From assembly GCA_964360965.1 (NCBI GenBank), contig CAYHYM010000004.1:660-64659 (forward strand): DNA of 64,000 nucleotides, read 5' to 3'. The notes beneath the pieces were generated by a model. It worked only from the letters and a program-made list of their open reading frames with translations, was not told the DNA's origin and did no database searches. The position numbers and the translations under genes are program-made. Below are positions 5,056-63,178 of this stretch, one piece after another (the stretch's first letter is position 1; every line of letters starts with the position of its first letter). The stretch is from an uncultured Gammaproteobacteria bacterium. Lineage in GTDB: Bacteria; Patescibacteriota; Microgenomatia; Daviesbacterales; UBA10151.

Positions 5056-5056
5056 A

Positions 5057-32640: not shown

Positions 32641-32664
32641 TTCTTTTCGACGCAATTTTGTCGC

Positions 32665-33062: not shown

Positions 33063-33295
33063 CTATGGGAGAGTTCTTGTAAGACGTCTTTGTGATCTTC
33101 AATAAACTGATCCACCATTTTGGCGAATCTTACATCTACACCAGGTATCTTGATTTTCTTTTGTGGAATTAAGGTAAGACCCTGATTTGTTTCTTTCCAC
33201 TCAACCTTTGACCCATCCCGTATAGAAAGCTGGTGGGCATAGGCTTTAGGTACAGTAACTGCTAAAGAGTTACCATTTTTAAATACTTTTCTCAT
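33059..33295 (-). CDS. AbrB/MazE-fold antitoxin (Phd-like partner of Doc)
   Basis: N-terminal KVFKNGNSLAVTVPK swapped-hairpin motif; 4-nt overlap with doc. Confidence 0.6.
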   Translation of the reverse strand: MRKVFKNGNSLAVTVPKAYAHQLSIRDGSKVEWKETNQGLTLIPQKKIKIPGVDVRFAKMVDQFIEDHKDVLQELSHR

Positions 33296-33362
33296 GCCTT
33301 AATGATACCATAAATGTACTGACAAGGTACTGACAAATTAATGTGGGGTATAATATTTCCCA

Positions 33363-34238
33363 GTGATTACTAAATCAAAACAGGAATATATTAAAAATGC
33401 TATTTATCTTTCCTATACTTCTTTAAATGATTTTTTGAAGTGTCCCGGGAGCTATTATTTAAAAAACATCTACAGAGATCCCAAAACCGGCTTTAGGATG
33501 CAGATTGCCTCACCTTATCTTTCTTTAGGTTCAACAGTCCATGATGCTATAAAGTGGCATATAGAAATGGCAGGCCCGCTTCGACTCGCGTCGAGCGAGG
33601 CGAGACAGGTAACATATGAACAATTGGAGGGAAAATTTAGAAATCTATGGCTAAAATATACCGGTAAAAGAGGGGGTTTCTCCACCAAAGAAGATGAAGC
33701 AAGTTTTGGTAAGCGCGGCCTGTTAATGTTGGAGAATTTTTTTAGAAATGCCAAAAACTTGGAAGATAAACATCACAGTATAGAATTTCCTAAATACCCA
33801 TTATTGGATAATGTAATTTTAATGGGGAATTTTGACTTTATTGGGGAAAAAGAGGATCAGACCTTACATGTTGTGGATTTTAAAACCGGAGCAAATGATG
33901 AAAAAGATCCAATTCAGCTTTATATTTATGCCATTTTGGCAGAGGCTAATTTGGAAAAATCAGTTTCTTCAGCTTCATTTTGGTATTTGGACAGGGAAGA
34001 TAAACCGCGTGATATAGTTTTAGATCCGCTGGAACCAAAACTGGAATGGTTAAAAGAAAAAGCCACAGAGTTAAAAAAGGCAATTGGGGAGGGAATGTGG
34101 GTTTGTCCTTCGACTCGCTCCGCTCGCTCAGGATTATGTAGAGATTGTAGAGACTATCATGCCATTTTGGATGGAAAAGGTGAATTTCAATTTACTGATT
34201 ATAGATACAAGAAAGATGTTTATTACCTTCCCAAATAG
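33363..34238 (+). CDS. Cas4/RecB-like PD-(D/E)xK nuclease with 4-Cys cluster (orphan, no CRISPR nearby)
   Basis: N-terminal Cys (CPGSYY), DF...VDFKTG...QLYIY nuclease motifs, C-terminal C...C..C; two short GC-rich in-frame insertions. Confidence 0.55.
   Translation: MITKSKQEYIKNAIYLSYTSLNDFLKCPGSYYLKNIYRDPKTGFRMQIASPYLSLGSTVHDAIKWHIEMAGPLRLASSEARQVTYEQLEGKFRNLWLKYTGKRGGFSTKEDEASFGKRGLLMLENFFRNAKNLEDKHHSIEFPKYPLLDNVILMGNFDFIGEKEDQTLHVVDFKTGANDEKDPIQLYIYAILAEANLEKSVSSASFWYLDREDKPRDIVLDPLEPKLEWLKEKATELKKAIGEGMWVCPSTRSARSGLCRDCRDYHAILDGKGEFQFTDYRYKKDVYYLPK
33570..33612. repeat. short GC-rich element inside the Cas4-like gene
   Basis: ggcaggcccgcttcgactcgcgtcgagcgaggcgagacagg, about 70% GC in an AT-rich gene. 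Confidence 0.55.
34106..34133. repeat. 28-nt family-2 GC-rich element (TCCTTCGACTCGCTCCGCTCGCTCAGGA) inside the Cas4-like gene
   Basis: Identical ends to the rnpA insertion. Confidence 0.7.
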
Positions 34239-34259
34239 TGGCTAGACTTCATGAGTAGT

Positions 34260-34691
34260 TTAACCTGTTTTTTTAGAATCTGGGATTATGACTGAAATAA
34301 CAGGTTTTTGATCTAACAATTCTACCACAAAAAGCCCATGCAAAAGAGTGGCTGTTTTAAGCACTTGCTCAAGAGGGACTCCTGTTTCTTTGGCAATTTG
34401 TTCAGCAGGTGCGCTCCAATGATGATCTTTTAAAGAGCGGGTAAAAGCTCCCAAGGGCTGGTTTTTGTAAGCTGCCATTCTGGTAAGAAAAGCCAGAGGT
34501 TCTGCCAGTTCACTAAATGGCTTGGGGGCACAAGGTGTATCAGGTATGGGTACTTTAGTTAGATCAACAGGAACTGTTAATTGCTCAACAAGCATCATTT
34601 CTACTGTAGATCTATTTTCCAAGCTTGTCAAAAAAGCTGTTTGGTTAAGGTGAACTAGCCTCAAAAAACGTGAATTAATACCGCAAAACAC
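34260..34691 (-). CDS. hypothetical protein
   Basis: ORF only. Confidence 0.3.
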   Translation of the reverse strand: MFCGINSRFLRLVHLNQTAFLTSLENRSTVEMMLVEQLTVPVDLTKVPIPDTPCAPKPFSELAEPLAFLTRMAAYKNQPLGAFTRSLKDHHWSAPAEQIAKETGVPLEQVLKTATLLHGLFVVELLDQKPVISVIIPDSKKTG

Positions 34692-34728
34692 CTTAAATTC
34701 ACGCTAAATTGACAAAAGTAAGTGAATT

Positions 34729-35562
34729 TCAGCTAAGTTGATGGACCATGTCTTCTACCATTTCTCTAACTCTTGCTTGCTGAGGATAAGTTGAATCTTT
34801 ATCTGAGACTGCTTTATCGCTTGTTAAAGCTACAAAGCTGTGTTCAATATATCTACGGTCTATAGATTGCAGATAACCTGCTTGATGGCAATAACTAAAT
34901 CCATCTTGGGTAATATTACCATCTTTATGCCTAACAGTAACCTCTTGACCACTTGCTGTAGCAGTTTTTCTAGTAGGGATCCATCTTAAAAACTTTTGGC
35001 CCAGATAATTATCTCTAACTAAAAAGCCTTTCCTAAACTCATATAAAAATTGGCCTACATTTTGAGCTGTTGTTTCATTTAGTGTGCCTGATTCAAGATT
35101 TAAGATAGTAGTATCATGAAGATGCCAATTGGATAAAACATCCTGTATTCTATTTCTACCTGCTACATCCGCTACCTTGGCAATTGCTACGTTATCAGAA
35201 AATTGAATAGAGTATCTTAGGAGATCTTCTAAAGTCTTTGTTGGCAGCATGTCCCTTCTAACAGCTTTGGACATAGCCCAGAGAGGAAGAAATTCTACTT
35301 TAAGTCTTCCAGTACCATGCATATTTTCCTGATACTCGTAAGGGGTAATATGATATCTTTGTTGTAAATCAAGCACCTCATCTTCTACTATTTTTAGAGC
35401 TACAGCCACTATAAAAAGTTTACCCAAAGAAGCAGCAGGTTGTTTCTCATGAGAATTGTATTCAGTAACTACTTGGTCAGTTTTTAAATTCTGTTGGAAG
35501 AAAGCAGTATGTAACTGACCATAAGTTTGTATACCACTTGCTTCTTTAATTGAGCCTGTCAT
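34729..35562 (-). CDS. class A beta-lactamase-like serine hydrolase
   Basis: SxxK (ASLGK) and SDN (FSDNVA) motifs in the correct order and spacing. Confidence 0.45.
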   Translation of the reverse strand: MTGSIKEASGIQTYGQLHTAFFQQNLKTDQVVTEYNSHEKQPAASLGKLFIVAVALKIVEDEVLDLQQRYHITPYEYQENMHGTGRLKVEFLPLWAMSKAVRRDMLPTKTLEDLLRYSIQFSDNVAIAKVADVAGRNRIQDVLSNWHLHDTTILNLESGTLNETTAQNVGQFLYEFRKGFLVRDNYLGQKFLRWIPTRKTATASGQEVTVRHKDGNITQDGFSYCHQAGYLQSIDRRYIEHSFVALTSDKAVSDKDSTYPQQARVREMVEDMVHQLS

Positions 35563-35627
35563 GGTTGGATTGTATCATAAAAGTTTAACTTCTGCTAAAT
35601 TGTTATATTTGTGGAAGCCTACCTGTA

Positions 35628-36068
35628 TTATTCTCCGGCTAATTTAAAGCCCGGCTTAGGGTACCAATCATCAAAAGAAAATATCAAATTTGTTTCAAAC
35701 TTATTGGCAGTTGCAGCCACAATTGCGTCAAAAATAGTATTTTGCTTAGATTGAGACCTTGTTTCAAAAATAATCGCTGCCTTAGTTTGAATTTCTAAGT
35801 TTACGTACTCCACAGTAAAAGCTCCTGCCAGATATTGTTTATTTATTAATTTTGCTTTATCAGGTAGGTTTTTAGCACGAGATAAGGCTGTAATTGTTTC
35901 CAGAATAGCAGTATTAGGATAAATTACTTGAAATCTTTTTAAGTTGAGCCACTGACTGATTCTCTTTGCTTTTTGGTGATTAGCATCTTGCTTATCTGCT
36001 AAAGCTATTAAGGAATCCGCATCTCCTATAATAATATTGTTCACTTTTGTCTTTTCTCTCCACCCCAA
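35628..36068 (-). CDS. PIN-domain (VapC-like) toxin
   Basis: IIGDADSLIAL and DAIVAATA acidic PIN motifs. Confidence 0.55.
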   Translation of the reverse strand: MGWREKTKVNNIIIGDADSLIALADKQDANHQKAKRISQWLNLKRFQVIYPNTAILETITALSRAKNLPDKAKLINKQYLAGAFTVEYVNLEIQTKAAIIFETRSQSKQNTIFDAIVAATANKFETNLIFSFDDWYPKPGFKLAGE

Positions 36069-36325
36069 GCGTAGTAGTCGTGATTTATAGATACATCCGT
36101 AGGAGAACCTTGTTGGCTGGGCATTTGTTCTGCCATCTTAGCCAGATCAAGTAAAGCCTGGGCATTGGATTTAGGGTGATTAATCTCCAAGCCCTTACTC
36201 AGGGCCTCTCTTATAATTTCAGCTTCAGCCTTATTCTTATCTTGAGCTATTAAGCTAATTCTTCTTCTGGTATCATCCGGGATGTGAACACTGATTCTTT
36301 GCATATGTATTACATCATACATCAT
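36041..36325 (-). CDS. ribbon-helix-helix (CopG/VapB-like) antitoxin
   Basis: ISVHIPDDTRRRISLIAQDKNKAEAEIIREAL RHH pattern; overlaps the PIN gene. Confidence 0.5.
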   Translation of the reverse strand: MMYDVIHMQRISVHIPDDTRRRISLIAQDKNKAEAEIIREALSKGLEINHPKSNAQALLDLAKMAEQMPSQQGSPTDVSINHDYYAWGGEKRQK

Positions 36326-36344
36326 ACAAACAGGTTTGTCAAGT

Positions 36345-36540
36345 GCCCAACTTAACTTCAGCTAAAGTGTTGTGTTTATGAAATCCATTAGAGGGGATCG
36401 ACTCAAATAGCTTAATCGACGATATCCGTATTGGATTAAAAGGCATGGCCATAAGTTTTTCCATTTCCACTTCTAATTTTTGATCTACTTTTAAATGGTT
36501 GTTGAGCTTGGAAATATTGAAATCTTCACTTTTGATAAAG
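36345..36540. repeat. partial duplicate of the thpR 3' end (about 196 nt, same orientation as thpR)
   Basis: Near-identical to 41945..42125, including a 75-nt perfect stretch aaaaggcatggccataagtttttccatttccacttctaatttttgatctacttttaaatggttgttgagcttgg. Confidence 0.85.
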
Positions 36541-36570
36541 ACTTAAAAAAGTTAAGGTAAAAATTACCAG

Positions 36571-36648
36571 GCTATTTTAGAGGGGAAAGGTGAGTTTCAG
36601 TTTACAGACCACCGCTACAAAAAAGATATTTATTTCTTGAAACGTTAA
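36571..36648. repeat. remnant copy of the 3' end of the Cas4-like nuclease gene
   Basis: Translates to AILEGKGEFQFTDHRYKKDIYFLKR*, against AILDGKGEFQFTDYRYKKDVYYLPK* at 34171..34238. Confidence 0.7.
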
Positions 36649-38186
36649 TAAATAGGCTCGAGGTCTTTTTCTACAACTTTTTCTATTAAAGTTTGTCCAG
36701 GGAAGATATAAATAAGTCTGATTTTGCCTGAACCGACCTTGTTCAGTTCGTCAATAATAGTTGTAACTTTACTTGACTTAATATCAGTAAAAGGTTTGGC
36801 GACGGAATGGTATCTGCTGATAAAACCTTCTAGTTCGGAAGCTGCCAGAATCACCACTACATTTTTATCCAGAAGTGTGGTCATTTCGCCTTTAAGCTTA
36901 CCTTGTTCTCGTAATAGGTTTTCAATTACTTGATAAAATTGGTTAAAATCTTGGGTGTTTGATTTACAGTTAATAATAAACTGTTGGACCTTTTCTTGTG
37001 TCTCAGAATTTACTGCGATAGACCCCTCTAGGATGTGACCTTCAAAGGCTGAAGTACTACTGTTGTAGACAGAAGGTAACCCAAGGAGAATAGTATGTGC
37101 TACCTCAATTTGGTGTTCCGCAAGCTCTGCTAACACGCTTCTTACTGCTTGTTTTGGGTCAATATAGTCAATTCCAGGTTCTTGTTCTAGTAATTTGCCA
37201 ACGCCTCCGTGCATAGCGGTGGAGCTAAAAGTGATTATTGGGGGTATTCTTCTCTCCCTAGGTAGTGCTTTCGCGCGAGCCATTAATTCAGGCATATGAG
37301 CTTTTAAACTTTGGCCATATAAATTAGTGTCAATTGAGCCTGATAGTTTTGGATCAGAGATCGGATAAATCTCAGGAAACGAGCGATCGCCAAAATAGTT
37401 CTTCCCCAAGGCTGTAATTAGAGAGTTCATCAGGGCTTCGGTGAAATGGGCAGTATCACGACCGCTATCTCCACCAACAACAATAATTGGTCTTCTAGCA
37501 ATCACTCTTGTTTCTTCTGGTTTACTAATATCCGGAGTAATGGTTTGTATTGGTAGTCTTTGAATACCCTTCAGGTAGCGTCTAATATCAAATCCAACGT
37601 AAAATCTAGGGTCTCCTGAAGAAGAAAATACTGTATCCTCATAAGGATAATCTGCTCCAGTAATTAGGTCACGATCAAAAAAATGCCTTATGGGAATATC
37701 AGTTTGGGTAAATGGGTTAACGGTGCCATACTCAAGACCTAGCTTGGTCACATCAGCACGCTTTAGATCAGACTCACTAACATCTAAGTGCTGGGCCAAT
37801 TTGGTAAAGTCTAGCTCTCGATCAGCTCTGGTATGAGTTATAACTAGGGGATAACCAGGAGCTGTTAGGGCATTAGATCTCATAATTCGCCATAGTTCTA
37901 CTCCTTGCTCTCCCTCGAAAATCGCAGCCGCAGCATTTTCTCTTACAGATCTGGGACGGCCTTGATTTTTACCAAAAAAATAATGAACTCCGTATTCAAA
38001 ACGCAAAAGTGGCGGGACTGGAGTTTCTGTATATATCTCATCTCTAATCTCTGCCGGGACATCAAAAATGGTCAGGCAAAGTGAATCAAAATGGCTGGCG
38101 ATTTGAGCCAGTCTTTCCACCACAGGATCGCTTTCTTCAAGGCCAAGTTGCTTTGGGTTAAATCCAACCTGTAATAATTGTTCCAT
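36645..38186 (-). CDS. hypothetical protein with C-terminal Asp/Glu/hydantoin-racemase-superfamily-like domain
   Basis: Blocks IIVVGGDSGRD, FSSTAMHGG and VVILAASELEG resemble the two half-sites of Asp/Glu racemase-type folds (Ser/Thr in place of Cys); weak. Confidence 0.3.
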   Translation of the reverse strand: MEQLLQVGFNPKQLGLEESDPVVERLAQIASHFDSLCLTIFDVPAEIRDEIYTETPVPPLLRFEYGVHYFFGKNQGRPRSVRENAAAAIFEGEQGVELWRIMRSNALTAPGYPLVITHTRADRELDFTKLAQHLDVSESDLKRADVTKLGLEYGTVNPFTQTDIPIRHFFDRDLITGADYPYEDTVFSSSGDPRFYVGFDIRRYLKGIQRLPIQTITPDISKPEETRVIARRPIIVVGGDSGRDTAHFTEALMNSLITALGKNYFGDRSFPEIYPISDPKLSGSIDTNLYGQSLKAHMPELMARAKALPRERRIPPIITFSSTAMHGGVGKLLEQEPGIDYIDPKQAVRSVLAELAEHQIEVAHTILLGLPSVYNSSTSAFEGHILEGSIAVNSETQEKVQQFIINCKSNTQDFNQFYQVIENLLREQGKLKGEMTTLLDKNVVVILAASELEGFISRYHSVAKPFTDIKSSKVTTIIDELNKVGSGKIRLIYIFPGQTLIEKVVEKDLEPIY

Positions 38187-38321
38187 ATATCTATTATCTA
38201 TGTGATAGAGCAGGTATTATACACTATAAGGCTTATTATGTCAAAATGATTAAACTAAGGATTTTTGTGTTTTTAAAACACTTGTTGACATATTGTCATA
38301 CAGATGTGTTATACTTAAGTT

Positions 38322-40052
38322 ATGGCATTAAAAAGAACTACCCTAAGGATAGATGAAGACTTAAAAAAAGATACTCAACAGCGAGCCTTAGAGGAGAATA
38401 CCACTCAACAAGAAATTCTCAATAGAGCTTTAAAGAAATATTTAAGAACTGAGGTTCAGAAAGAGCTTGCTAGGGAAACAGTGGCCGAGCCACAGGAAGT
38501 AACTACAAAAAAGGCTAGTTCGAGTAAACCAGCAGATGTAATTGATTTGATATTTAGCTCACTGGATATCGAAGCCAGGGGTTTTATTAAAAAGGGAGAT
38601 TTGATAGATGCCCTTAATTTTAGAGGAATTCTAGAGGATGACATTAGGATTAAAAATGTCATGGAGGCTTTGAGTAAAACTAATAAAGACGATGATATCC
38701 CCCCCCAAACCTTCCGCAGGATTGTTGGGCCGTACATTACATTAATTGAAAAAGCCCTGACTGGTAGTCTGGTTATCCCCGATTTTAAGAATTTCTGTAG
38801 TTTTATTACTAATCTTTATAATCGCACAATTCAAAACAAAGATGGCGAGGTTTCAGATTACATACCTGAGCTAAAAGGAGTTGACCCAAATAACTATGCT
38901 ATTTCCATTTGTACTATAGACGGACAGAGATTTAATTTGGGAGATTACAATACTCCCTATCTAGCCCAATCTACTGCCAAACCCATAAATTATTGTCTGG
39001 CCTTAGAAGAGCACGGCGAAGAAGTAGTTCATAAAAAGATTGGCAGAGAACCTTTAGGCAAAGGTTTAAATCAGTTGACTCTAAACAGTCAAGGATTGCC
39101 GCATAATCCTTTAAATGGTACAGGAGCAATTATGTCGGCCTCCTTGATTGGCCAAGAACTTTCCCTGGAAGACCGTTTTGAACAGGCTTTAAAGAAATGG
39201 AAGTCGCTTTCCGGAGGAATTAATCCTGGATTTTCAAAATCAGCTTACGATTCAGCTAAACATGTTGCGGATAAAGATCTGGCGCTAGCTTATTTTATGA
39301 GATTGAATCAGTTGTTTTCCAAAGGATCAAATTTAGAAGAATATTTGGACTTTCTGTTTAAATGCTTATCTATTGAAACTACCACTGAAGCTCAAGCAAT
39401 TATTGCTGCCACTTTGGCAAACGCCGGAGTTTGTCCGACCAATGGGGAAGCCGTGTTAAAAATGGAGACTACAAAGAATTGTTTATCTTTGATGTATTCC
39501 TGCGGTATGGAAGATTACTCGTCTGAGTTTGCTTTTGCAATAGGACTTCCTGCTAAAAGCGGTATTTCAGGATCGATTATGATAGTTGTGCCTAATGTGA
39601 TGGGAATTGCGATTTATTCTCCTAGGGTTGATAGTAATGGCAATAGTGTTAAAGGATTAGATTTATGTAATAAATTAATCCAGAGATTTAATTTTCATAA
39701 TTACGATAGCTTAACTAAAAAACTGGATAAAATTGATCCCAGGCTTTTGAAAAATGAAAATAAAATGAGGGGCGTGATGGCTGTTTGTACTGCTGCTTCT
39801 CAGGGAGATCTATATGAGATCCAAAGGTTAGAGGCCTCGGGGGTTGCTTTGGATGAAGGTGATTATGATGCCAGAACCGGCATACATCTGGCAGCCTCGG
39901 AAGGTCACGAAGAGGTAGTTCGCTATTTTATTGAAAGAAGAGTGGATATTAACCCTAAAGACCGTTGGGGTGGGACACCTTTAGCTGATGCCATGAGAGG
40001 TAACCACACTGCGGTAATTGAACTGTTGGAGAAAAATGGAGCCAGGCTATGA
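38322..40052 (+). CDS. glsA: glutaminase with N-terminal RHH-like segment and C-terminal ankyrin repeats
   Basis: YIPELKGVDP...GDYNTPYLAQSTAKPINYCLALE...GREPLG serine-dependent glutaminase blocks; C-terminal ANK repeats (GIHLAASEGHEEVVRYFI...GGTPLADAMRGNH). Confidence 0.75.
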   Translation: MALKRTTLRIDEDLKKDTQQRALEENTTQQEILNRALKKYLRTEVQKELARETVAEPQEVTTKKASSSKPADVIDLIFSSLDIEARGFIKKGDLIDALNFRGILEDDIRIKNVMEALSKTNKDDDIPPQTFRRIVGPYITLIEKALTGSLVIPDFKNFCSFITNLYNRTIQNKDGEVSDYIPELKGVDPNNYAISICTIDGQRFNLGDYNTPYLAQSTAKPINYCLALEEHGEEVVHKKIGREPLGKGLNQLTLNSQGLPHNPLNGTGAIMSASLIGQELSLEDRFEQALKKWKSLSGGINPGFSKSAYDSAKHVADKDLALAYFMRLNQLFSKGSNLEEYLDFLFKCLSIETTTEAQAIIAATLANAGVCPTNGEAVLKMETTKNCLSLMYSCGMEDYSSEFAFAIGLPAKSGISGSIMIVVPNVMGIAIYSPRVDSNGNSVKGLDLCNKLIQRFNFHNYDSLTKKLDKIDPRLLKNENKMRGVMAVCTAASQGDLYEIQRLEASGVALDEGDYDARTGIHLAASEGHEEVVRYFIERRVDINPKDRWGGTPLADAMRGNHTAVIELLEKNGARL

Positions 40053-40354
40053 AAAGTGATATTAAGACAACCGGAGTAATGGCGCTTGACTGGGCAGCGG
40101 CTCAGGGAGATTTGCACGAGATTCAAAGGTTAGTCGCATCCGGCGCAGATTTGAACGAAGGTGATTATGATGGGAGAACCGCAATACATCTGGCAGCCTC
40201 GGAAGGACAGGAAGAAATTGTCAGGTATTTAATTGCGAAAGGTGTAAATATTAATCCTAGGGATCGTTGGGGTGGGACACCTTTAGCTGATGCCATGAGA
40301 GGTAACCACACCAAAGTTATAGAGCTTTTGAAAAAACATAATGCACAGAAATAA
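40049..40354 (+). CDS. stand-alone ankyrin-repeat protein, tandem duplicate of the glutaminase ANK module
   Basis: About 70% identical to the last 95 aa of the upstream ORF; ATGA start/stop overlap. Confidence 0.65.
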   Translation: MKSDIKTTGVMALDWAAAQGDLHEIQRLVASGADLNEGDYDGRTAIHLAASEGQEEIVRYLIAKGVNINPRDRWGGTPLADAMRGNHTKVIELLKKHNAQK

Positions 40355-40365
40355 TCTAATTTCCT

Positions 40366-41466
40366 ATGAATGATAAACAAATTTCTCCTCCCAATAAAAT
40401 AAAAGTTTATGTATTAAACACAGGTGGAACTCTGGGAATGGTGGGTAAACCGCTTCGTCCCGCTAAATCAGCTGCAGAGCTTTTAGAGGGAATTAATACT
40501 CCGCCTGAAGTGGAACTTATCATAGATGATTTTAAGTTTAGGCAGGATTCTACTAATATTTTGCATGCTGAAAGGCTAATGATGGCTAGGCAAATAGCCG
40601 AAAATTATAAAACCCATGATGCTTTTGTCATTATGCACGGGACTGATTCTATGGCAGAAACAGCTGCAGCTTTTTGTATGTTCTTTAAATTATCTTTACA
40701 AAAGCCTTTAATTTTAGTTGGTGCTCAGATGTCTAAAGATGAGCCTGGTTCAGATGTACAACTGCAGTTATCAAATACTTTTAGAGTTGCCAGCGCCTTT
40801 CATAGATATAATATTGTGGGTGTTTATAATGTTTGTATCGGTGATATTTGGGATGGGTCAAGGCTTAGGAAAAGAGCAGAGTCAAATTTCATGGCTTTTT
40901 ACACTCCAGGTCGTCATCCGGTGGCCAGAATTTGGCCTCATATTCACTTTGATGAAGGGTTAAGATATAAAGATCCTGTTTTGGCAGTTCAGGATTTAAA
41001 GATTGATGGTGTGCTAGAGCGTAAAGTAGCTACTTTTAAAGTATCAGCAGATACACCTCCATGGGTAGTAATGGATCAAGTTTTAAAAAATCGCCTCAAA
41101 GGGGTCATTTTAGAGTGTAAAGGTGCAGGAAATATTCCAAATCGTGAATGGGAAGATTATGAAAACGGGACAACTTATTCATGGATTGATGTAATTGCGG
41201 CAGCAACTAAAGCTGGAATCCATGTGGGGATTATTTCACCTTTTGAAGATGGCAGAGTTATCCTAGGTCGTTATGAGCTGGGAGCAGAAGCACTTGAGGC
41301 AGGGGCAATTAGCTTAGAAAGTCTGACTCCAGATATGGCAGATATTAAGTTTAGACAGGCTATTGCTATGTTTCCTACAGATAGAGAAAAAATTCAAGAA
41401 TTTATTTCAACTAATATTATTGGAGAATTACTTACCGGAGCAGAAGATTCTGAGGAATTCATTTAG
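40366..41466 (+). CDS. L-asparaginase
   Basis: N-terminal VLNTGGTLGM and HGTDSMAETAAAF motifs typical of the asparaginase/glutaminase family. Confidence 0.8.
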   Translation: MNDKQISPPNKIKVYVLNTGGTLGMVGKPLRPAKSAAELLEGINTPPEVELIIDDFKFRQDSTNILHAERLMMARQIAENYKTHDAFVIMHGTDSMAETAAAFCMFFKLSLQKPLILVGAQMSKDEPGSDVQLQLSNTFRVASAFHRYNIVGVYNVCIGDIWDGSRLRKRAESNFMAFYTPGRHPVARIWPHIHFDEGLRYKDPVLAVQDLKIDGVLERKVATFKVSADTPPWVVMDQVLKNRLKGVILECKGAGNIPNREWEDYENGTTYSWIDVIAAATKAGIHVGIISPFEDGRVILGRYELGAEALEAGAISLESLTPDMADIKFRQAIAMFPTDREKIQEFISTNIIGELLTGAEDSEEFI

Positions 41467-41479
41467 AGTAAGTTTTTTA

Positions 41480-41530
41480 CCCAAGTTTAACTTCAGCCAG
41501 AATGTTATGTTTATGGAAGCCATTTTTGTA
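41480..41530. repeat. second short copy of the thpR 3'-terminal sequence
   Basis: tttaacttcagccagaatgttatgtttatggaagcc against the thpR end tttacttcagctaaagtattatgtttgtggaaacc. Confidence 0.55.
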
Positions 41531-41534
41531 GAAA

Positions 41535-41654
41535 TCAAAGTAATTCTTTAAGTTCATCTATGGAAATTTCCACTGACTTTAAAATACTCATTAGAGTTTT
41601 TCTTTTGAGAGCTTTAATGACCTCCTTTGGCTTAACAACTGGAATTTTGGGCAT
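41535..41654 (-). pseudogene. hicA: HicA toxin remnant with internal deletion
   Basis: Translates to MPKIPVVKPKEVIKALKRKTLMSILKSVEISIDELKELL: the N- and C-terminal segments of the intact 74-aa HicA at 63179..63403 are fused and the central GSH region is missing. Confidence 0.55.
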
Positions 41655-41918
41655 TTAAGAAAGAGTTTGCTGGATGGGTATATCAATTGTTGTCATAAAG
41701 CTGGGACCTTTTTCTTCAGGAACTATTTCATTATGTTTTTTTAAACTGGCAATATATACGCTGATAGCATCTTTAACCATCTCCACAGCTTCTTCCAAAC
41801 TGTTACCTTCTGTGACACATCCTGGCAGAGCAGGTACAATCACCACATACCCACCTTCTTCAGCTGGTTCAAAAATAGCAGTATATTTTAAGATTTTTTG
41901 AGAGATTTTCTTAGCCAT
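41655..41918 (-). CDS. hicB: HicB-family antitoxin (orphaned)
   Basis: About 85% identical to the HicB at 63404..63664; UPF0150-like YxxxFEP...GGY..VP..PGC motif. Confidence 0.6.
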   Translation of the reverse strand: MAKKISQKILKYTAIFEPAEEGGYVVIVPALPGCVTEGNSLEEAVEMVKDAISVYIASLKKHNEIVPEEKGPSFMTTIDIPIQQTLS

Positions 41919-41936
41919 GGAGTTATTATAGCATTT

Positions 41937-42503
41937 TCAAACTAACTTTACTTCAGCTAAAGTATTATGTTTGTGGAAACCTTCTTGGGGAACTGATTCA
42001 AACAGTTTAATGGAGGAAATTTTAATGGGATTAAAAGGCATGGCCATAAGTTTTTCCATTTCCACTTCTAATTTTTGATCTACTTTTAAATGGTTGTTGA
42101 GCTTGGCAATGGTGATATGAGGAATGAAACGACGTTCATCTGCTGTGAGCCTTAAAGTGGCCAAGCTATCTTTGATGCGCTCACGAATAAGTAAAATTTT
42201 ATCTATATCCCCTTTGACTCCAATCCAAAGAACTTGAGGATGGTGGAGGTTTGGAAATCCATCAATATAGGCAGGGGTAACTTCAAATGCAGGAATATTC
42301 GCTACAGCATTTCTGATAATTTCAACTAATTTATCCTTTAATCCATCCGGTTGTTCTCCTAAAAAAGCTAAAGTCAGGTGAATTTTGTCTAAATCAGTAA
42401 TTCTTACTTGAGTAATTAATGTATGCAATTTAGCTTGTATAGCTTGAAACTGCAATCTATTCTCTTTCGGAATTTCAAGTGCTATGAAAAACCTTATACC
42501 CAT
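41937..42503 (-). CDS. thpR: RNA 2',3'-cyclic phosphodiesterase / 2'-5' RNA ligase family (ThpR/LigT)
   Basis: Two H-x-T/S-x motifs (HLTLAF and HITIAK) at the characteristic spacing of the 2H phosphoesterase fold. Confidence 0.7.
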   Translation of the reverse strand: MGIRFFIALEIPKENRLQFQAIQAKLHTLITQVRITDLDKIHLTLAFLGEQPDGLKDKLVEIIRNAVANIPAFEVTPAYIDGFPNLHHPQVLWIGVKGDIDKILLIRERIKDSLATLRLTADERRFIPHITIAKLNNHLKVDQKLEVEMEKLMAMPFNPIKISSIKLFESVPQEGFHKHNTLAEVKLV

Positions 42504-42870
42504 AAATCATACTATATTTGACAACGCTTTTAAAAAGTGCCTACACTTAAATAGTATGGCAATGGCGGTTGAAGCTCCCCCTCAGCCAAGAGCAAAAGCT
42601 GAAATAAGAGTTATTAAATCTGATCCTGAAGTTTTGGATGAGCAAGTACTCTATCAACAAGGAGCTTATAAAAGAGTCAGGCAATATCTACGAGGCTGGT
42701 ATCCTAAATTGGGAGTTTTACATATGGGCTGGCAAGGTCAAGAAACCATTGTAGAAAGAGATGTTATTACAGCCAGTGTAAGATTTAGAGTAAGCCAGGG
42801 TATTGATAGGTATACCTTCACTGACTTGACAAATAGACCGGGATTTCTTATTGTTAAAGCAACAACTTAA
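42484..42870 (+). CDS. hypothetical protein (start uncertain)
   Basis: ORF only; overlaps the thpR start on the opposite strand. Confidence 0.25.
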   Translation: MKNLIPINHTIFDNAFKKCLHLNSMAMAVEAPPQPRAKAEIRVIKSDPEVLDEQVLYQQGAYKRVRQYLRGWYPKLGVLHMGWQGQETIVERDVITASVRFRVSQGIDRYTFTDLTNRPGFLIVKATT

Positions 42871-42889
42871 TATTTAATCAAGAGTGATG

Positions 42890-43020
42890 GGGAGGGAATT
42901 GGCCCGTTGATCCATCCAGCAACTGATTCGAGTTTTCGAGAATCCTTAAGCGACTAGCGAAGGACCTCTAGAAACCGACCGCGGTGCTACACCCAAGCCC
43001 GCAAGGGAGGATTAGGTCTT
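42890..43020. repeat. GC-rich structured element (possible ncRNA or leader) upstream of a terminator
   Basis: About 60% GC block in AT-rich DNA; contains a tccttcgctagtcgcttaagga family-2-like palindrome on the reverse strand. Confidence 0.4.
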
Positions 43021-43036
43021 TTAAAGGCAAAAATTG

Positions 43037-43062
43037 AACCTCTCTTGATGAGAGGTTTTTTA
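43037..43062 (+). terminator. rho-independent terminator-like hairpin (aacctctcTTGATGagaggtt + T6)
   Basis: 8-bp stem, 6-nt loop, U-tract; lies only 19 nt upstream of the RBS/ATG of the next ORF. Confidence 0.5.
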
Positions 43063-43080
43063 ATGAGAAGGAGGTGAAAT

Positions 43081-43440
43081 ATGGAAAGAAAAGAATTAAT
43101 GCAGCAGTTAGTAGCTGAAGGAAGAACAAAACCTAGGGGTTTACTGACTATTATATTTGACGAAGAGAGTGAGTATGTCAGATTTGTGCGTGAGGCATAT
43201 AATAGGTTTGGTGGTGAAGGATTAGAATTTACTAACGTTCCGATTATCCTTAGTGCCCGTGTTAGACCCGGCCTATTGGAGCAAACCTGGGAAGAATTTA
43301 ACTATAGACCAGTTACTAAAGAGGATTTAGATAAAGTTAGGGAGGAATTAAAAAAATGGAAGCCATGGGATCCGGCAATACTAAAAGATGGACATGTTCC
43401 AGGTTTTGCAGAACCAAAGGAAATATATATTGATTGGTAA
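43081..43440 (+). CDS. hypothetical protein
   Basis: Strong RBS aggaggtg 5-12 nt upstream; no recognisable motifs. Confidence 0.4.
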   Translation: MERKELMQQLVAEGRTKPRGLLTIIFDEESEYVRFVREAYNRFGGEGLEFTNVPIILSARVRPGLLEQTWEEFNYRPVTKEDLDKVREELKKWKPWDPAILKDGHVPGFAEPKEIYIDW

Positions 43441-43601
43441 ATGCTTTTTAAGTTCCTTCATGCCAAGCAAGACTGAAAAGCCAATATAGGCTGCCTTAAG
43501 ACGCATTTTTGGCATATCTTATAGTATACCAGGTAGCTGTTTATAAATCAAATAATGTTTATTTAACAGAAGTTTTTGTGATACTATTATTTTAAGCATT
43601 T

Positions 43602-44747
43602 ATGGAAGGAAAAGAGTCTGCCCCTATCAAAGTTAGGGCTGCTAATACTGTTGCCAGTTTCCTACTTTTTGCTATGTCTGCAACAGGTTGTAACCTAAAC
43701 TTTCCAGGAAGCTCATCAGAAGATTCTCAGGAGTTACTAAATAGATCTACCCCTGTTGATCCGGAATTAGGCAAAAGATATAGGCAAATAATTGAGGAAT
43801 CTGTAGGACAAGACTGTGAATTACCAGAAGTAGGATTTAGGTCAATCAGAAGACCGACAGTATTTCTACCACGCTTTAGAACAGAAGGATATATGATTCC
43901 ACCTCTTTCTGATGGAGAAACAGCCAATATAATAATCCCCACCTTAAGTAAACGTGACCCGATAGTGGCTCAAAGTGCCAAAGAAGCAGGAGTCACCAGA
44001 GAAGAATATAAAAAAGCAATGGAAAATGTCACAATAATTCATGAAGGTATCCACCTTTGTTCACCTTTTGAAACATCAGATCAAAAACATCCAAATCCGG
44101 TAATAGTTGATTATACAAAGCCTGATGTGCAACGGGATCGTAGAGGAGTATATAAATTAAATTATCAAGTCCGCAGATTAGAAATTGCACCCTTTTCAGG
44201 TTTGGGTTTAATGATTGAGGAAAGTAAAATATACTCTGATGGGACAGTTGAAATTCATAAGCTATATCAGGAAGAGGGAGATACAGAGGAGCTTATTACC
44301 CACTCTATCACTCCTCAAAGAGTATTAAAAAAATATGGAGCTGATTCTTTAGAATATAAAGCCTCTCAAGAGTCAGGGTATCCAACAGGAAGGACGGTTC
44401 TGACAAATATTTTTGCAACAAAAGAGGTAGGATTTGATGATATTATCGGGGCAAAACAGAAAAATGATGCTAAAGCTATCTTTGAGATGGTAAAACAGGG
44501 GGTTGAGGAGATAGGCAAAAGAGCCGGGATTGAAAGAAAAGTTACTGATGAGAACCACTCTAATTTTGTGCTATATAACTTTTTCAGTCAGCTTTCTACT
44601 GAAAGAGCAGCTAAAAATGAAATTAACCCGAACCTGCTTATTGATTATTTAAGTAACTATTTCTTTGGTAAAAACTTTAATAAAACAACTGCTAAAGAGA
44701 GAGAACAGATGATATCTGTTTACAATCAAGTTTTCATCAAACGATAA
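43602..44747 (+). CDS. putative lipoprotein, function unknown
   Basis: Signal peptide with lipobox-like MSATGC. Confidence 0.4.
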   Translation: MEGKESAPIKVRAANTVASFLLFAMSATGCNLNFPGSSSEDSQELLNRSTPVDPELGKRYRQIIEESVGQDCELPEVGFRSIRRPTVFLPRFRTEGYMIPPLSDGETANIIIPTLSKRDPIVAQSAKEAGVTREEYKKAMENVTIIHEGIHLCSPFETSDQKHPNPVIVDYTKPDVQRDRRGVYKLNYQVRRLEIAPFSGLGLMIEESKIYSDGTVEIHKLYQEEGDTEELITHSITPQRVLKKYGADSLEYKASQESGYPTGRTVLTNIFATKEVGFDDIIGAKQKNDAKAIFEMVKQGVEEIGKRAGIERKVTDENHSNFVLYNFFSQLSTERAAKNEINPNLLIDYLSNYFFGKNFNKTTAKEREQMISVYNQVFIKR

Positions 44748-44761
44748 GTTAACAGAAGTGA

Positions 44762-46459
44762 TTACTGTGTTCCCACCAGATACACAGCTTGCCAGGGTTT
44801 GTAGTTAGATTTCCAGGTTTCTTTGATCATCACCTCCCCTCCTTTGGTGACAGTTCTGGTAAATGACACATCAGCCCCCCAGGCTGCAAAATCTATCTGT
44901 TTGACCTCACCTTTGGGCAGCTCGGGGTCATCCTGTCGCAACTCCGGTGGAGGCGGAGTCTGGTTGGTAATAATTGGTTTTGTTAAAGTGGCCACCCTGT
45001 TATCAGAGGTGCCATATAAATCAACATATAAACTGTTACCCACTGTATATGCTTGGATTAAAATATGGGATGGGGTGTCATTTTTAAACTTAAAATCAAC
45101 AGAGGGAGAAAAAACTGTGGCATCCAGTCCGGCAGGGAAACCCTGCTCATAATAACCCACTCTGTAGGCATGAGCTACTCTTTGGACCACTGGTAGTCCC
45201 GCATTTAAGACTGCTCTAAATAAAGTAGTTGAATCCTGACAAACTCCTCCTCCATCATCTAAAACAGTCCTGCCGGATTTAATCACATAGGCCTGTTTAT
45301 AACCTGACTGCGCCGAAATATCCCCAACTTTGTCGTTAAAAGAGAATGTTTCTCCTGGGGGGACTAAAATACCGTTGATGCGTGAGGCAGCCAGTCCAAT
45401 ATTATAGATTCTGTTGGGGATTGAACCTGTAAAATGAGAAATACCGCGACCAATTAGCTCTTTGATCCCCAAATCATTGACCTGTTGGGTTTGGATTTTA
45501 GGCTGGGTAATGGTAACTGGCAAGGTGATGGTTTTTGGTCTTTGGTTGTCCAAAGCCAGTATGATAAGTTGAGTTGTTTTTTCCATATCAACTCTTTTAC
45601 CTGCCTGGGCAGGTTTGAAAGCTGTTACCCGTGCTATTAATGGATCAAAATTAAACAGCGCCTCAATCACCGGTTGGTCAATTTTGGAAGCTACTGCAGT
45701 TGTTAAATATTTGGATAGCTTATTTTTATCTATTAACTGATTATTTTGTGTAAAATTCAAAAGAGGGATTAAAATTTTAGCATCAATCAACCAGCTATTG
45801 CCATCAAAGGTAAGTTTGATTGGTTCTTTGATAGCATCCTCCAGATATTTTTTGGCCAGTTCTGCCTCTTTATTGGTAATGTCTGGTTCAATTTGCCTGG
45901 TGGGAAGTGTGGCAGGCGAGTTCCCAAATAAAAGGTAATCCTCAAGGTAAATTAACAGTTGGTCTTTATCCAAAGCAAGACCTGTTCTGCCTGCTGTTAT
46001 TTTAATTAGGGCAGATGGGGTTGACTGCTCTATTGTAAGAGTGGCATCTTGGGGAGGTTGATATATGGTTTGAGCTAAGGCGTTAACTTGTTCGTTAAGA
46101 TCAATATCAATTTTGGGTTTAATGGTTCTTGGGGAAACTGTCAGTTTTATTTGATCGAATATTTTTTCTGCCCAGGTACCTGTATGGCCGATTAAAAAAG
46201 CCTCGTCTATGGCCTGAGAACTATTAATTTTGGCAGAGGCGGTTGACAGGTCAATGGTAAGGATCCTTTGCCGCAGTCTTTGGTGGAATTTTGCCTCAAT
46301 CAGTCTTTGAGATTGAGTTTTGGTCAGGAAAAAAAGATGACTATCCCCGACAAAAATTCCGGGAAAAAATTTATCGTAAAAAATAAACTGACAGCTGGTG
46401 AGAATAAGTATGATCAGGATAAAAAATAACACCAGCGGTCTTTTTGCCATTGAGCGCAT
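44762..46459 (-). CDS. VanW-family protein
   Basis: N-terminal TM helix; C-terminal DDGGGVCQDSTTLFRAVLNAGLPVVQR...HAYRV block characteristic of VanW. Confidence 0.7.
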   Translation of the reverse strand: MRSMAKRPLVLFFILIILILTSCQFIFYDKFFPGIFVGDSHLFFLTKTQSQRLIEAKFHQRLRQRILTIDLSTASAKINSSQAIDEAFLIGHTGTWAEKIFDQIKLTVSPRTIKPKIDIDLNEQVNALAQTIYQPPQDATLTIEQSTPSALIKITAGRTGLALDKDQLLIYLEDYLLFGNSPATLPTRQIEPDITNKEAELAKKYLEDAIKEPIKLTFDGNSWLIDAKILIPLLNFTQNNQLIDKNKLSKYLTTAVASKIDQPVIEALFNFDPLIARVTAFKPAQAGKRVDMEKTTQLIILALDNQRPKTITLPVTITQPKIQTQQVNDLGIKELIGRGISHFTGSIPNRIYNIGLAASRINGILVPPGETFSFNDKVGDISAQSGYKQAYVIKSGRTVLDDGGGVCQDSTTLFRAVLNAGLPVVQRVAHAYRVGYYEQGFPAGLDATVFSPSVDFKFKNDTPSHILIQAYTVGNSLYVDLYGTSDNRVATLTKPIITNQTPPPPELRQDDPELPKGEVKQIDFAAWGADVSFTRTVTKGGEVMIKETWKSNYKPWQAVYLVGTQ

Positions 46460-63115: not shown

Positions 63116-63178
63116 AGTTTAATTGTAGCTTAAACTCCTATTACTTCAAAGGTTGAGCCCACTGAATTTTTAGAAACC

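What the first reader, a model, noticed from the sequence alone, without database searches (positions are those of the whole stretch)
36345..42130. About 5.6-kb amidohydrolase island bounded by direct copies of the thpR 3' end (att-like duplications)
The last about 190 nt of thpR (41945..42125) are duplicated in the same orientation at 36345..36540, including a 75-nt perfect match. A shorter copy lies at 41480..41530. The repeats enclose a racemase-like gene, glutaminase-ANK, a duplicated ANK ORF, L-asparaginase and the decayed hicBA. Duplication of a gene's 3' end at both borders is the signature of site-specific integration into that 3' end, here apparently repeated (nested) at a thpR hotspot. 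No integrase remains within the window.
Basis: seen in the sequence. Interest (0 to 1): 0.6.

Follow-up and report, generated by a model that had tools for sequence, protein, structure and literature searches.

The report
Insertion hotspot with displaced gene ends
In this groundwater Daviesbacteria (candidate phyla radiation) genome, a spot where two conserved genes normally overlap tail to tail holds 7.7 kb of borrowed genes added in several steps, each step leaving the old end of a flanking gene behind as a short repeat, which makes it a well-documented but fairly ordinary recombination hotspot with no integrase found in it.

Summary
The repeats are real. The thpR 3' end (41944-42118) recurs at 36349-36523, including a 79-nt perfect run. 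Also missed were a copy of the 3' end of the PD-(D/E)XK nuclease gene (36571-36648) and a scrap of a PIN toxin gene (36519-36560).

In about 15 related Daviesbacteria loci, thpR and the nuclease gene are convergent and overlap by 4-19 nt. That overlap is the empty site. About 27 loci carry 0.3-4 kb there, mostly toxin-antitoxin pairs plus asparaginase, beta-lactamase-like and ankyrin genes. No integrase appeared among the families listed. The window's insert, 34239-41936, is the largest.

The copies differ almost only at synonymous sites (pN/pS about 0.1, pS 0.8-1.0). They are therefore gene ends from other lineages, not local duplications that decayed. Relatives preserve intermediate states: L091 has thpR-ansA, and L062 and L016 have thpR-vapBC.

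Best reading: serial, homology-anchored acquisition of "thpR end plus cargo" segments, each displacing the previous thpR end. This resembles the displacement arrays of Rhs and T6SS loci. Site-specific integration is not excluded, because four of six remnants start near codon 175, but it lacks direct support. Independent assemblies span both large repeats.

The parts
33363..34238 (+). PD-(D/E)XK (Cas4-like) nuclease gene 'nuc'; the left core flank of the hotspot
   Evidence: Pfam PDDEXK_1 E 6e-20. Weak Cas4 match below cutoff. Orthologue lies convergent to thpR in relatives.
34260..34691 (-). 143-aa ORF with no family match; cargo of the oldest module, nearest nuc
34729..35562 (-). Beta-lactamase-fold (class A-like) gene; cargo of the oldest module
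   Evidence: Pfam Beta-lactamase2 E 1.6e-18. Related genes occupy the same site in L029 and L053.
35575..35619 (-). thpR tail a: displaced last 13 codons of a thpR gene (GFHKYNNLAEVKL) plus LL and a stop
   Evidence: A promoter-like site for the bla-like gene overlaps it (35598-35569; consensus match only).
35628..36068 (-). vapC (PIN toxin)
   Evidence: Pfam PIN. About 80% identical at the protein level to the L016 vapC that directly follows thpR.
36041..36325 (-). vapB (ribbon-helix-helix antitoxin)
   Evidence: Pfam RHH_1. The thpR-end/vapB spacer is orthologous to that of L016 and L062.
36339..36523 (-). thpR'b: displaced thpR 3' end, codons ~129-187 plus GT and a stop. It holds the 79-nt perfect run 36433-36511.
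   Evidence: (HMM E 2.7e-23).
36519..36560 (+). Scrap of the last 13-14 codons of a PIN toxin gene (EIFTFDKDLKKLR*), joined illegitimately to thpR'b
   Evidence: Aligns with the end of the L016 PIN gene 11415-11843, which is likewise followed by a nuc remnant. It is the top hit in the window scan, scoring 39 against 29 for the next best.
36571..36648 (+). nuc': displaced 3' end of a PD-(D/E)XK nuclease gene (AILEGKGEFQFTDHRYKKDIYFLKR*)
   Evidence: HMM E 5.6e-11; score 111 against next best 30.
36645..38186 (-). 513-aa ORF of unknown family
   Evidence: Only a sub-threshold tRNA_edit hit. Nothing in NCBIfam or the PDB sequence search.
38322..40052 (+). Glutaminase with a C-terminal ankyrin repeat region
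   Evidence: Pfam Glutaminase E 7e-89, EF-hand_14, Ank.
40049..40354 (+). Stand-alone ankyrin ORF; a tandem copy (76%) of the glutaminase C-terminus
   Evidence: (family D1).
40366..41466 (+). Type I L-asparaginase-family gene (ansA)
   Evidence: Pfam Asparaginase N- and C-terminal domains. TIGR00519 match below cutoff. 78-87% nt identity to genes at the same site in L062 and L091.
41477..41521 (-). thpR tail c: displaced last 13 codons (GFHKHNILAEVKL) plus G and a stop. It abuts the ansA stop, as the functional thpR end does in L091.
41525..41654 (-). Decayed hicA with an internal deletion, plus about 12 nt of 3' flank shared with the paralogous hicBA
41655..41918 (-). hicB antitoxin
   Evidence: Pfam HicB_lk_antitox.
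41937..42503 (-). thpR (RNA 2',3'-cyclic phosphodiesterase); the intact right core flank
   Evidence: TIGR02258 at 121.5 bits against cutoff 65.7; Pfam LigT_PEase.
63137..63178 (-). Second instance in the same genome: displaced last ~15 codons of the SbcC-like ATPase gene that starts just beyond the window end. It flanks hicA (63179-63403), hicB (63404-63664) and a 90-aa ORF (63701-63973).
   Evidence: L096 3430-3482 against 4278-4330, 81%.

Best explanation
The thpR/nuclease junction is a recombination hotspot of Candidatus Daviesbacteria. In the ancestral state the two convergent core genes overlap at their stop codons, so anything placed between them must regenerate a gene end.

I read the window's 7.7-kb insert as the product of at least three successive acquisitions from other Daviesbacteria lineages. 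Each incoming segment carried a thpR 3' portion plus the genes that followed thpR in the donor. It recombined homologously within thpR on one side. On the other side it was joined illegitimately in or near the resident thpR tail. The incoming end became the functional end of thpR, and the resident end was pushed downstream with its old neighbours.

Read from thpR towards nuc, the modules are:
- thpR + hicB/hicA' (newest)
- tail c + ansA, ANK, glutaminase-ANK, 513-aa ORF, nuc', PIN scrap
- thpR'b + vapBC
- tail a + bla-like gene + 143-aa ORF (oldest)

The nuclease side works the same way: a nuc' copy lies behind a toxin-antitoxin pair in L016 and behind a short ORF pair in L047.

Shown: the empty site, the variable cargo, the foreign origin of the copies, the illegitimate PIN'|thpR'b joint, and the intermediate states in relatives.

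Inferred: the enzymology (RecA-type homologous exchange plus illegitimate joining, or single-crossover insertion of a circularised fragment) and the route of DNA entry (transformation or the type IV secretion-like apparatus). The toxin-antitoxin pairs probably help retention by addiction.
For: Empty site and cargo.
- thpR and nuc overlap by 4-19 nt in about 15 non-redundant relatives. About 27 others hold 288-4005 nt at that site.
- Cargo in 25 filled sites: six PIN, two MazE/AbrB, HicA/HicB, RelB, two asparaginase, two beta-lactamase-like, one IS1595 transposase. No integrase family is listed.
- No recombinase match in any window ORF of 150 aa or more.

Origin of the copies.
- Every pair of copies has pN/pS of 0.06-0.16 with pS of 0.5-1.0, and a binomial P of 0.017 or less. 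For the 28 codons of thpR against thpR'b, P = 1.6e-7.
- The copies therefore diverged as working genes in different lineages and have hardly decayed since.

Intermediate states in relatives.
- In L091 the functional thpR tail abuts ansA. Positions 309-630 match window 41521-41200 at 87%, whereas the thpR body matches at only 69%.
- L062 and L016 have a functional thpR end followed by the same spacer and vapBC as the window's thpR'b.
- L029 and L053 have thpR followed by a bla-like gene.

Signs of illegitimate joining.
- The PIN scrap plus nuc' lies next to thpR'b, and the same PIN-end/nuc' junction occurs in L016.
- The 8 nt after the vapC stop resemble the nuc' end that follows vapC in L016. 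The 12-13 nt after hicA are shared with the paralogous hicBA copy.
- In L062 a short tail (LAEIKFG*) joins vapC at an ATAATACT microhomology.

Other support.
- The large repeat is identical for 79 nt at its gene-5' edge and only 70% identical in the remaining 84 nt. This is as expected if the crossover lay at about codon 160.
- GC content of the insert is the same as that of the flanks, so the donors were related.
- The same architecture occurs at the SbcC-like gene end and around many other small modules in 1 Mb of Daviesbacteria loci.
- A published analogue with the same proposed mechanism exists: T6SS and Rhs displacement arrays (PMC5361080).
Against: - Four of six thpR remnants (window tails a and c, L033, L036) start at, or within about 13 nt upstream of, codon G175, with unrelated DNA on both sides. 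Random illegitimate joints should scatter more. By a rough estimate of my own, this clustering has a probability of about 0.01 if breakpoints are uniform over the last 60 codons.
- A simple linear homology-facilitated illegitimate event usually deletes recipient DNA rather than duplicating it, so a circular intermediate or a template switch has to be assumed.
- No donor genome with thpR directly followed by this hicBA was found.
- Only one contig of the genome was available, so a recombinase acting in trans cannot be excluded.
- The order of events is inferred from position only.
Confidence: 0.6

Rival explanations
1. Site-specific cassette integration. The last ~39 nt of thpR act as an attachment site for a recombinase encoded elsewhere in the genome. 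Small circular cassettes (tail plus toxin-antitoxin pair or other cargo) are inserted there one after another, as in an integron or in Xer-dependent modules.
For: Tails a and c, and the tails in L033 and L036, all begin at or within a few nt of codon G175 with different cargo on both sides. The four tails divide the window insert into cassette-like units of 460, 5135 and 767 nt (family D3). Cassette borders lie within 8-13 nt of the toxin stop codons.
Against: No integrase in the window or among the families listed for the cargo of 25 filled sites. Synonymous sites of the tail vary at least as freely as those of the rest of thpR (normalised codon entropy 0.84 against 0.67), so no conserved DNA site is visible. 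Other remnants have different lengths (175 nt, about 85 nt in L011, about 21 nt in L062). The 5.1-kb 'cassette' ends in scraps of nuc, a PIN gene and thpR codons 129-174, which a precise cassette would not carry. Direct repeats around other small modules share no motif.
Confidence: 0.2
2. Single-crossover (Campbell-type) insertion of one circular 5.6-kb element through homology in the thpR 3' end. The 175-nt repeats would then mark an element that can still loop out by recombination between them. The short tails are older, unrelated scars.
For: The two large repeats are direct, share a 79-nt perfect run and lie 5595 nt apart. Recombination between them would restore a thpR-vapBC arrangement like that of L016 and L062. 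The joint between thpR'b and the PIN/nuc' scraps is what the closure point of a circularised chromosomal fragment would look like.
Against: A plain Campbell event between diverged alleles gives repeats that differ along their whole length, unless gene conversion follows. Here the identical run sits exactly at the edge of the homology. No replication or mobilisation gene lies in the 5.6 kb. No contig with the excised junction was recovered: the thpR look-up returned only the hicB-linked form.
Confidence: 0.13
3. Local tandem duplication of the thpR-to-nuc interval followed by decay and gene replacement, with no foreign DNA involved in making the repeats.
For: The layout (nuc ... thpR' | nuc' ... 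thpR) is formally that of a tandem duplication junction.
Against: The copies differ at saturated synonymous sites but at few non-synonymous sites, which local decay cannot produce. The two halves share no cargo. Relatives carry each module separately.
Confidence: 0.04
4. Assembly artefact: strain variants were joined at the shared 79-nt run.
For: The source is a metagenome-assembled genome at about 4x coverage per sample. Several independent contigs end at the repeats: L094 at 35582 and L095 at 36433.
Against: Contigs from separate assemblies (ENA H51 R1 and R2) cross each large repeat into unique sequence on both sides, at 99.8-100% identity. The PIN'|thpR'b joint has no shared sequence that could mislead an assembler.
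Confidence: 0.03

Closest known systems
Displacement arrays of Rhs, CDI and T6SS effector-immunity loci ('C-terminal displacement'; Kirchberger et al. 2017, PMC5361080, and the Rhs work cited there)
   Same: A constant gene keeps receiving new 3' ends together with downstream genes. The old 3' ends and their partners are shifted downstream and pile up as an array. No integrase is involved. Homology at one end plus illegitimate recombination at the other is the proposed mechanism.
   Different: In those loci the displaced ends encode variable toxin domains, and the change of end is the point of the process. Here the thpR end is conserved in protein sequence, so the cargo is what changes. Both convergent flanking genes leave displaced ends. 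The cargo is toxin-antitoxin pairs and amidohydrolases, in a candidate phyla radiation genome.
Genomic islands integrated into the 3' or 5' end of protein-coding genes (for example SGI1 in trmE, PMC8409611; dusA islands, PMC4482086)
   Same: Insertion at a gene end, with the element restoring the gene and a partial copy of the gene end at the far border. Empty sites exist in relatives.
   Different: Those islands encode their own integrase and have defined att cores (abstracts seen). Here no integrase is found in the window or among the families listed for relatives' inserts. Junction positions and remnant lengths vary, and one joint is plainly illegitimate.
Integron cassette arrays
   Same: Serial addition next to a fixed point. 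Older units are pushed back. Units are small, often toxin-antitoxin pairs, and are separated by short repeats.
   Different: No integron integrase is present. I saw no attC-like imperfect palindrome in the repeat, by eye only. The repeat is the coding end of a housekeeping gene.
Core-gene-flanked recombination hotspots, and homology-facilitated illegitimate recombination in transformable bacteria (PMC3240628 abstract; de Vries and Wackernagel 2002 and Prudhomme et al. 2002, as cited in PMC5361080)
   Same: Variable accessory content lies between conserved core genes. One homologous anchor is combined with one illegitimate joint, with microhomology at some joints (L062).
   Different: The experimentally described events mostly delete recipient DNA rather than duplicate it, and they have not been described in this phylum.

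Membership tests
RNA 2',3'-cyclic phosphodiesterase ThpR (2H phosphoesterase) | Full-length match to the curated family model above its cutoff | tested here: met
   TIGR02258 at 121.5 bits against cutoff 65.7; Pfam LigT_PEase and 2_5_RNA_ligase2.
Integrase-mediated genomic island at a gene 3' end | Integrase or recombinase gene inside or next to the island | tested here: not met
   No such Pfam family in any window ORF of 150 aa or more, although about a dozen of them have no match at all. None among the 25 families listed of 40 found in 59 cargo ORFs from 25 relatives.
Integrase-mediated genomic island at a gene 3' end | Empty site in relatives, with direct repeats of the target gene end at both borders | tested here: met
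   Empty thpR/nuc overlap in about 15 relatives. Repeats confirmed.
Integrase-mediated genomic island at a gene 3' end | One defined crossover core shared by all junctions | tested here: inconclusive
   Four of six remnants start near codon G175. The others start at codon ~129 and codon ~150, and a seventh short remnant in L062 starts at codon ~182. Synonymous sites in the tail are not conserved.
Integron | IntI-type integrase with an adjacent attI site | tested here: not met
   No tyrosine recombinase match in the window. The rest of the genome was not available.
Integron | attC sites (imperfect palindromes) at cassette borders | tested here: inconclusive
   No inverted repeat was reported in or around the tails by the repeat finder. 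Inspected by eye only; no attC model was run.
Displacement array (Rhs/CDI/T6SS type) | Intact gene followed, in the same orientation, by one or more orphan copies of its 3' end, each with its own downstream genes | tested here: met
   thpR followed by tail c, thpR'b and tail a, all on the minus strand, each followed by different genes.
Displacement array (Rhs/CDI/T6SS type) | Orphan ends derive from other alleles rather than from local duplication | tested here: met
   pN/pS 0.06-0.16 with saturated pS. Orthologous functional arrangements in L091, L062 and L016.
Displacement array (Rhs/CDI/T6SS type) | Variable toxin-encoding 3' ends paired with immunity genes | tested here: not met
   The thpR ends are conserved in protein sequence (GFHKHNTLAEVKL). 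The toxins are separate toxin-antitoxin genes.
Core-gene-flanked recombination hotspot | Two conserved flanking genes with highly variable content between them across relatives | tested here: met
Xer-dependent (pdif-type) modules | 28-bp XerC/XerD binding sites flanking each module | not tested
   The tail was compared with the E. coli dif consensus from memory only, and no convincing match was seen. The dif site of this lineage is unknown.

The most novel reading that the evidence does not exclude
The last ~39 nt of thpR, and perhaps analogous ends of the nuclease gene and the SbcC-like gene, serve as recombination sites for a recombinase acting in trans. On this reading Daviesbacteria would have an integrase-less, integron-like cassette platform in which the coding ends of housekeeping genes play the role of attC, and toxin-antitoxin pairs are the main cassettes.
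Probability: 0.12. Interest if true: 0.7.

Novelty: new member of a known kind. Interest (0 to 1): 0.38.

Why it matters
Very little is known about how the tiny genomes of candidate phyla radiation bacteria gain and lose genes. Classical mobile elements and integrases are reported only sparsely there.

This locus preserves several successive acquisitions, each marked by a displaced gene end. Relatives preserve the empty site and intermediate stages. It shows that gene flow between Daviesbacteria lineages can be read directly from gene-end remnants. It also shows that toxin-antitoxin pairs, asparaginase/glutaminase, ankyrin and beta-lactamase-fold genes are the cargo found at this site.

If the clustering of junctions near codon 175 reflects a real site preference, it would point to an undescribed recombination system. 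If not, this is a clear but ordinary example of homology-anchored acquisition at a hotspot.

Tried and rejected
- tRNA or tmRNA target: none in the window.
- Integrase, transposase or recombinase in the window: none among ORFs of 150 aa or more. In relatives' inserts only one IS1595 transposase was found.
- Foreign base composition: the insert has the same GC content (0.34-0.43) as its flanks. It therefore does not look like DNA from a distant donor.
- Intrinsic terminators at the tails: none predicted. Promoter-like sites are no more frequent than in shuffled sequence, 28 against 23.7 expected. The idea that tails are kept as promoters or terminators rests on a single consensus match in tail a and remains speculative.
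- Extra nucleotide constraint on the tail, as expected for a protein-binding site: not found.
- Exact-protein look-up of vapB: not on record.
- Family assignment of the 513-aa ORF ('racemase-like'): nothing in Pfam above threshold, NCBIfam or the PDB sequences.
- Search for the donor allele of thpR'b among the 29 closest thpR proteins: no identical C-terminus.
- Common motif among the direct repeats around other small modules: none seen.
- dif-like and attC-like features in the tail: compared by eye with remembered consensus sequences and not convincing. This was not a formal test.
- Simple tandem duplication: rejected on the synonymous-site pattern.
- Not used: Rfam, structure prediction and the large protein-representative search. 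They do not bear on this question.


Full report
**Source.** The thpR protein of the window is encoded on contigs from Hainich groundwater well H51 (0.1 µm fraction). Its closest named relatives are Candidatus Daviesbacteria, in the Microgenomates of the candidate phyla radiation. The window has 39% GC and no tRNA gene.

**The observation.**
- The 3' end of thpR (41937-42503, minus strand; TIGR02258 above cutoff) is repeated in the same orientation at 36349-36523. The repeat is 175-176 nt at 84.7% identity, E 6e-48.
- The perfect run is 79 nt: 36433-36511 equals 42028-42106.
- The last 13 codons of thpR occur four times, not three: at 41943-41981 (the gene itself), 36348-36386, 41483-41521 and 35581-35619.
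- In a six-frame scan of the whole window, these four places score 59-70 for GFHKHNTLAEVKL. The next best score is 23.

- 36571-36648 (plus strand) copies the 3' end of the PD-(D/E)XK nuclease gene at 33363-34238. The peptide reads AILEGKGEFQFTDHRYKKDIYFLKR* against AILDGKGEFQFTDYRYKKDVYYLPK*. Its score is 111 against 30 for the next best, with HMM E 5.6e-11.
- 36519-36560 copies the last 13-14 codons of a PIN toxin gene. Relative L016 has the intact PIN gene, followed directly by the same kind of nuclease-gene remnant.

**Assembly.** Contigs from separate assemblies of the H51 samples cross each large repeat into unique sequence on both sides.
- L093 covers 30645-40348 and L094 covers 35582-40297.
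- L001 covers 40923-46793 and L002 covers 40340-43399.
- All match at 99.8-100%.
- Collapse or chimerism at the 79-nt run is therefore unlikely. No single independent contig spans both repeats, because they break at the ankyrin duplication near 40340.

**The empty site.**
- I fetched 31 genome loci and 59 metagenome loci with thpR relatives.
- In about 15 non-redundant loci, thpR and the nuclease gene are convergent and their reading frames overlap by 4-19 nt, stop codons included.
- In about 27 others, 288-4005 nt lie between the two genes.
- The window holds 7698 nt there (34239-41936), the largest insert seen.
- The hotspot is therefore the thpR/nuclease junction.

**Cargo.**
- Fifty-nine cargo ORFs from 25 filled sites gave six PIN, two MazE/AbrB, one HicA, one HicB, one RelB, two asparaginase, two beta-lactamase-like and one IS1595 transposase. 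GAF/kinase, NUDIX and other families appeared once each.
- No integrase family is in the list. The tool showed 25 of 40 families; the rest were single weak matches.
- Window ORFs of 150 aa or more include dnaA, dnaN, a type IV secretion-like cluster and housekeeping genes, but no recombinase match. About a dozen of these ORFs have no Pfam match.

**Origin of the copies.**
- For every pair of copies, differences sit almost entirely at synonymous sites.
- For thpR against thpR'b, in the 28 codons 3' of the identical run, there are 18 synonymous and 7 non-synonymous differences. That gives pS 0.96, pN 0.11 and P = 1.6e-7.
- The three 13-codon tails and the nuclease copy give pN/pS of 0.06-0.16.
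- Synonymous sites are close to saturation, and the frames of the remnants are intact.
- The copies therefore diverged for a long time as ends of working genes in different lineages and became remnants recently. This excludes local duplication followed by decay.

**Intermediate states in relatives.**
- In L091 the functional thpR ends with a tail that directly abuts the stop of an asparaginase gene. That gene is 87% identical in DNA to the window's ansA, while the thpR bodies are only 69% identical. The window's tail c plus ansA is the same arrangement, with hicB/hicA' and a new tail placed in front of it.
- In L062 and L016 a functional thpR end is followed by the same spacer and vapBC as the window's thpR'b.
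- L029 and L053 have thpR followed by a beta-lactamase-like gene, as after the window's tail a.

**The array.** The window reads as four stacked 'thpR end plus downstream genes' modules:
- thpR + hicBA'
- tail c + ansA, ANK, glutaminase-ANK, 513-aa ORF, nuc', PIN scrap
- thpR'b + vapBC
- tail a + bla-like gene + 143-aa ORF, and then nuc

**How the joints look.**
- The joint at 36519-36527 links thpR codon ~129 to the last 14 codons of a PIN gene. It is an illegitimate joint.
- The 8 nt after the vapC stop resemble the nuclease-remnant end that follows vapC in L016.
- The 12-13 nt after the hicA stop are shared with the paralogous hicBA at 63167.
- In L062, vapC joins a short tail (LAEIKFG*) at an ATAATACT microhomology.
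- Modules thus carry scraps of their former neighbours. This fits recombination of chromosomal fragments and does not fit precise cassettes.
- The large repeat is identical for 79 nt at its gene-5' edge and only 70% identical over the remaining 84 nt. This is what results if the homologous exchange lay near codon 160 and the resident copy from codon ~129 onward was retained behind the insert. Later gene conversion could give the same picture.

**What argues for some site preference.**
- Against a null taken from the opposite strand (top score 37), six thpR remnants stand out in about 45 non-redundant loci: window b, c and a, and L033, L036 and L011.
- Four of them (window a and c, L033, L036) begin at, or within about 13 nt upstream of, codon G175. 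The DNA on both sides is unrelated in each case.
- By a rough estimate of my own, this is unlikely by chance (about 0.01 if breakpoints are uniform over the last 60 codons). It is the main support for a site-specific mechanism.
- Against it, synonymous positions of the tail vary at least as freely as in the rest of thpR across 64 sequences: normalised codon entropy 0.84 against 0.67. No conserved DNA site is visible.
- The other remnants start elsewhere.
- Direct repeats around other small modules share no motif.
- I record this clustering as unexplained.

**Generality.**
- The same architecture occurs a second time in this genome. The last ~15 codons of an SbcC-like ATPase gene, which begins just beyond the window end, are duplicated at 63137-63178. 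They flank a 90-aa ORF and an intact hicBA.
- In about 1 Mb of Daviesbacteria loci, self-comparison found some 40 direct repeats of 29-125 nt lying 0.3-3 kb apart. Several touch ORF ends, and some of these enclose HicBA, PIN/RHH or (by sequence motif only) Fic-like modules.

**Mechanism I commit to (confidence 0.6).** I favour serial, homology-anchored acquisition.
- DNA from another Daviesbacteria lineage, carrying a thpR 3' portion and whatever followed it, recombines within thpR on one side.
- On the other side it is joined illegitimately in or near the resident tail. This may go through a circularised fragment or a template switch, because recipient sequence is duplicated rather than lost.
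- The overlap of the two core genes means that only events which regenerate an intact gene end survive selection. This explains why remnants are so regularly present.
- Toxin-antitoxin cargo probably stabilises each acquisition.
- The recombination enzymes and the route of DNA entry are inferred, not shown. That candidate phyla radiation genomes commonly encode competence proteins is my own background knowledge. The type IV secretion-like cluster at 2.6-16.7 kb of the window is another possible route.

**Comparison with known systems.**
- The closest described process is the displacement of 3' ends in Rhs, CDI and T6SS effector-immunity loci. [quoted passage not shown]
- This locus shares that architecture and the foreign origin of the orphan ends. 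It differs because the displaced ends are conserved and the toxins are separate genes.
- It resembles islands integrated at gene ends (trmE, dusA) in having an empty site and gene-end repeats, but it lacks their defining integrase.
- It resembles integron arrays in its serial order only.

**Verdict.** It is wrong about the empty site and the island borders, and unsupported as to integrase-type site-specific integration. I file the locus as a new member of a known kind: a core-gene-flanked recombination hotspot with gene-end displacement, in a little-studied phylum. Interest is moderate.

Noticed in passing
window 63137-64000 (and L096 3430-4667): A second gene-end duplication. The last ~15 codons of an SbcC-like ATPase gene that starts just beyond the window end are repeated at 63137-63178. 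The repeats flank a 90-aa ORF and an intact hicBA that is 83% identical to the decayed copy at 41525-41918.
   Followed up: yes
window 31044-31077, 60192-60226, 20595-20619, 31555-31584, 20785-20807, 34111-34133; L016 10520-10565: Three families of small GC-rich repeats, two of them clearly palindromic, recur in the window. Examples are CACCTCCGAGG..CCTCGGAGGTG and GTCATCCCGACGAATGTCGGGATCC. Several copies lie inside coding genes (tsaD, tatD, the nuclease gene). The thpR genes of L011 and L016 carry a 45-nt palindromic in-frame insert. This is reminiscent of the in-frame palindromic elements of Rickettsia.
   Followed up: partly
window 38322-38465: The first ~48 residues of the glutaminase-ankyrin ORF resemble the product of a small 72-aa ORF (not annotated) that lies next to the nuclease gene in L047 (tblastn 54%). 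By eye the residues look like a ribbon-helix-helix antitoxin, so this may be a fusion scar. Pfam did not report an RHH domain.
   Followed up: no
window 39748-40037 and 40050-40339: Tandem duplication (76% identity) of the ankyrin-repeat region: once as the C-terminus of the glutaminase and once as a separate 101-aa ORF. Independent contigs break here.
   Followed up: partly
window 32775-33295: A Phd/MazE-type antitoxin plus Doc/Fic toxin pair sits on the other side of the nuclease gene. Unlike the hotspot cargo, it is conserved there in many relatives (L010, L018, L023, L025, L027 and others).
   Followed up: partly
window 2655-16709 and 17160-20267: A type IV secretion-like cluster (two T4SS pilin ORFs, PrgI-like, TraG/VirB4-like P-loop ATPase) lies next to dnaN and dnaA. 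The hotspot is therefore about 14-22 kb from dnaA, the presumed origin region.
   Followed up: no
L004 11360-11444 and 13004-13088; L015 3326-3395 and 5345-5414; L026 5382-5410 and 5902-5930; L027 5413-5446 and 6573-6606; L042 12322-12358 and 13114-13150: Other Daviesbacteria loci show 29-85-nt direct repeats around small modules. Several copy ORF ends: the nuclease gene's 5' end in L004 and an ORF's 3' end in L027. L026 encloses a tblastn-supported hicBA. The other enclosed ORFs (PIN/RHH, Fic-like, a 487-aa ORF) were named from sequence motifs only. Gene-end duplication may therefore be common in this lineage.
   Followed up: partly
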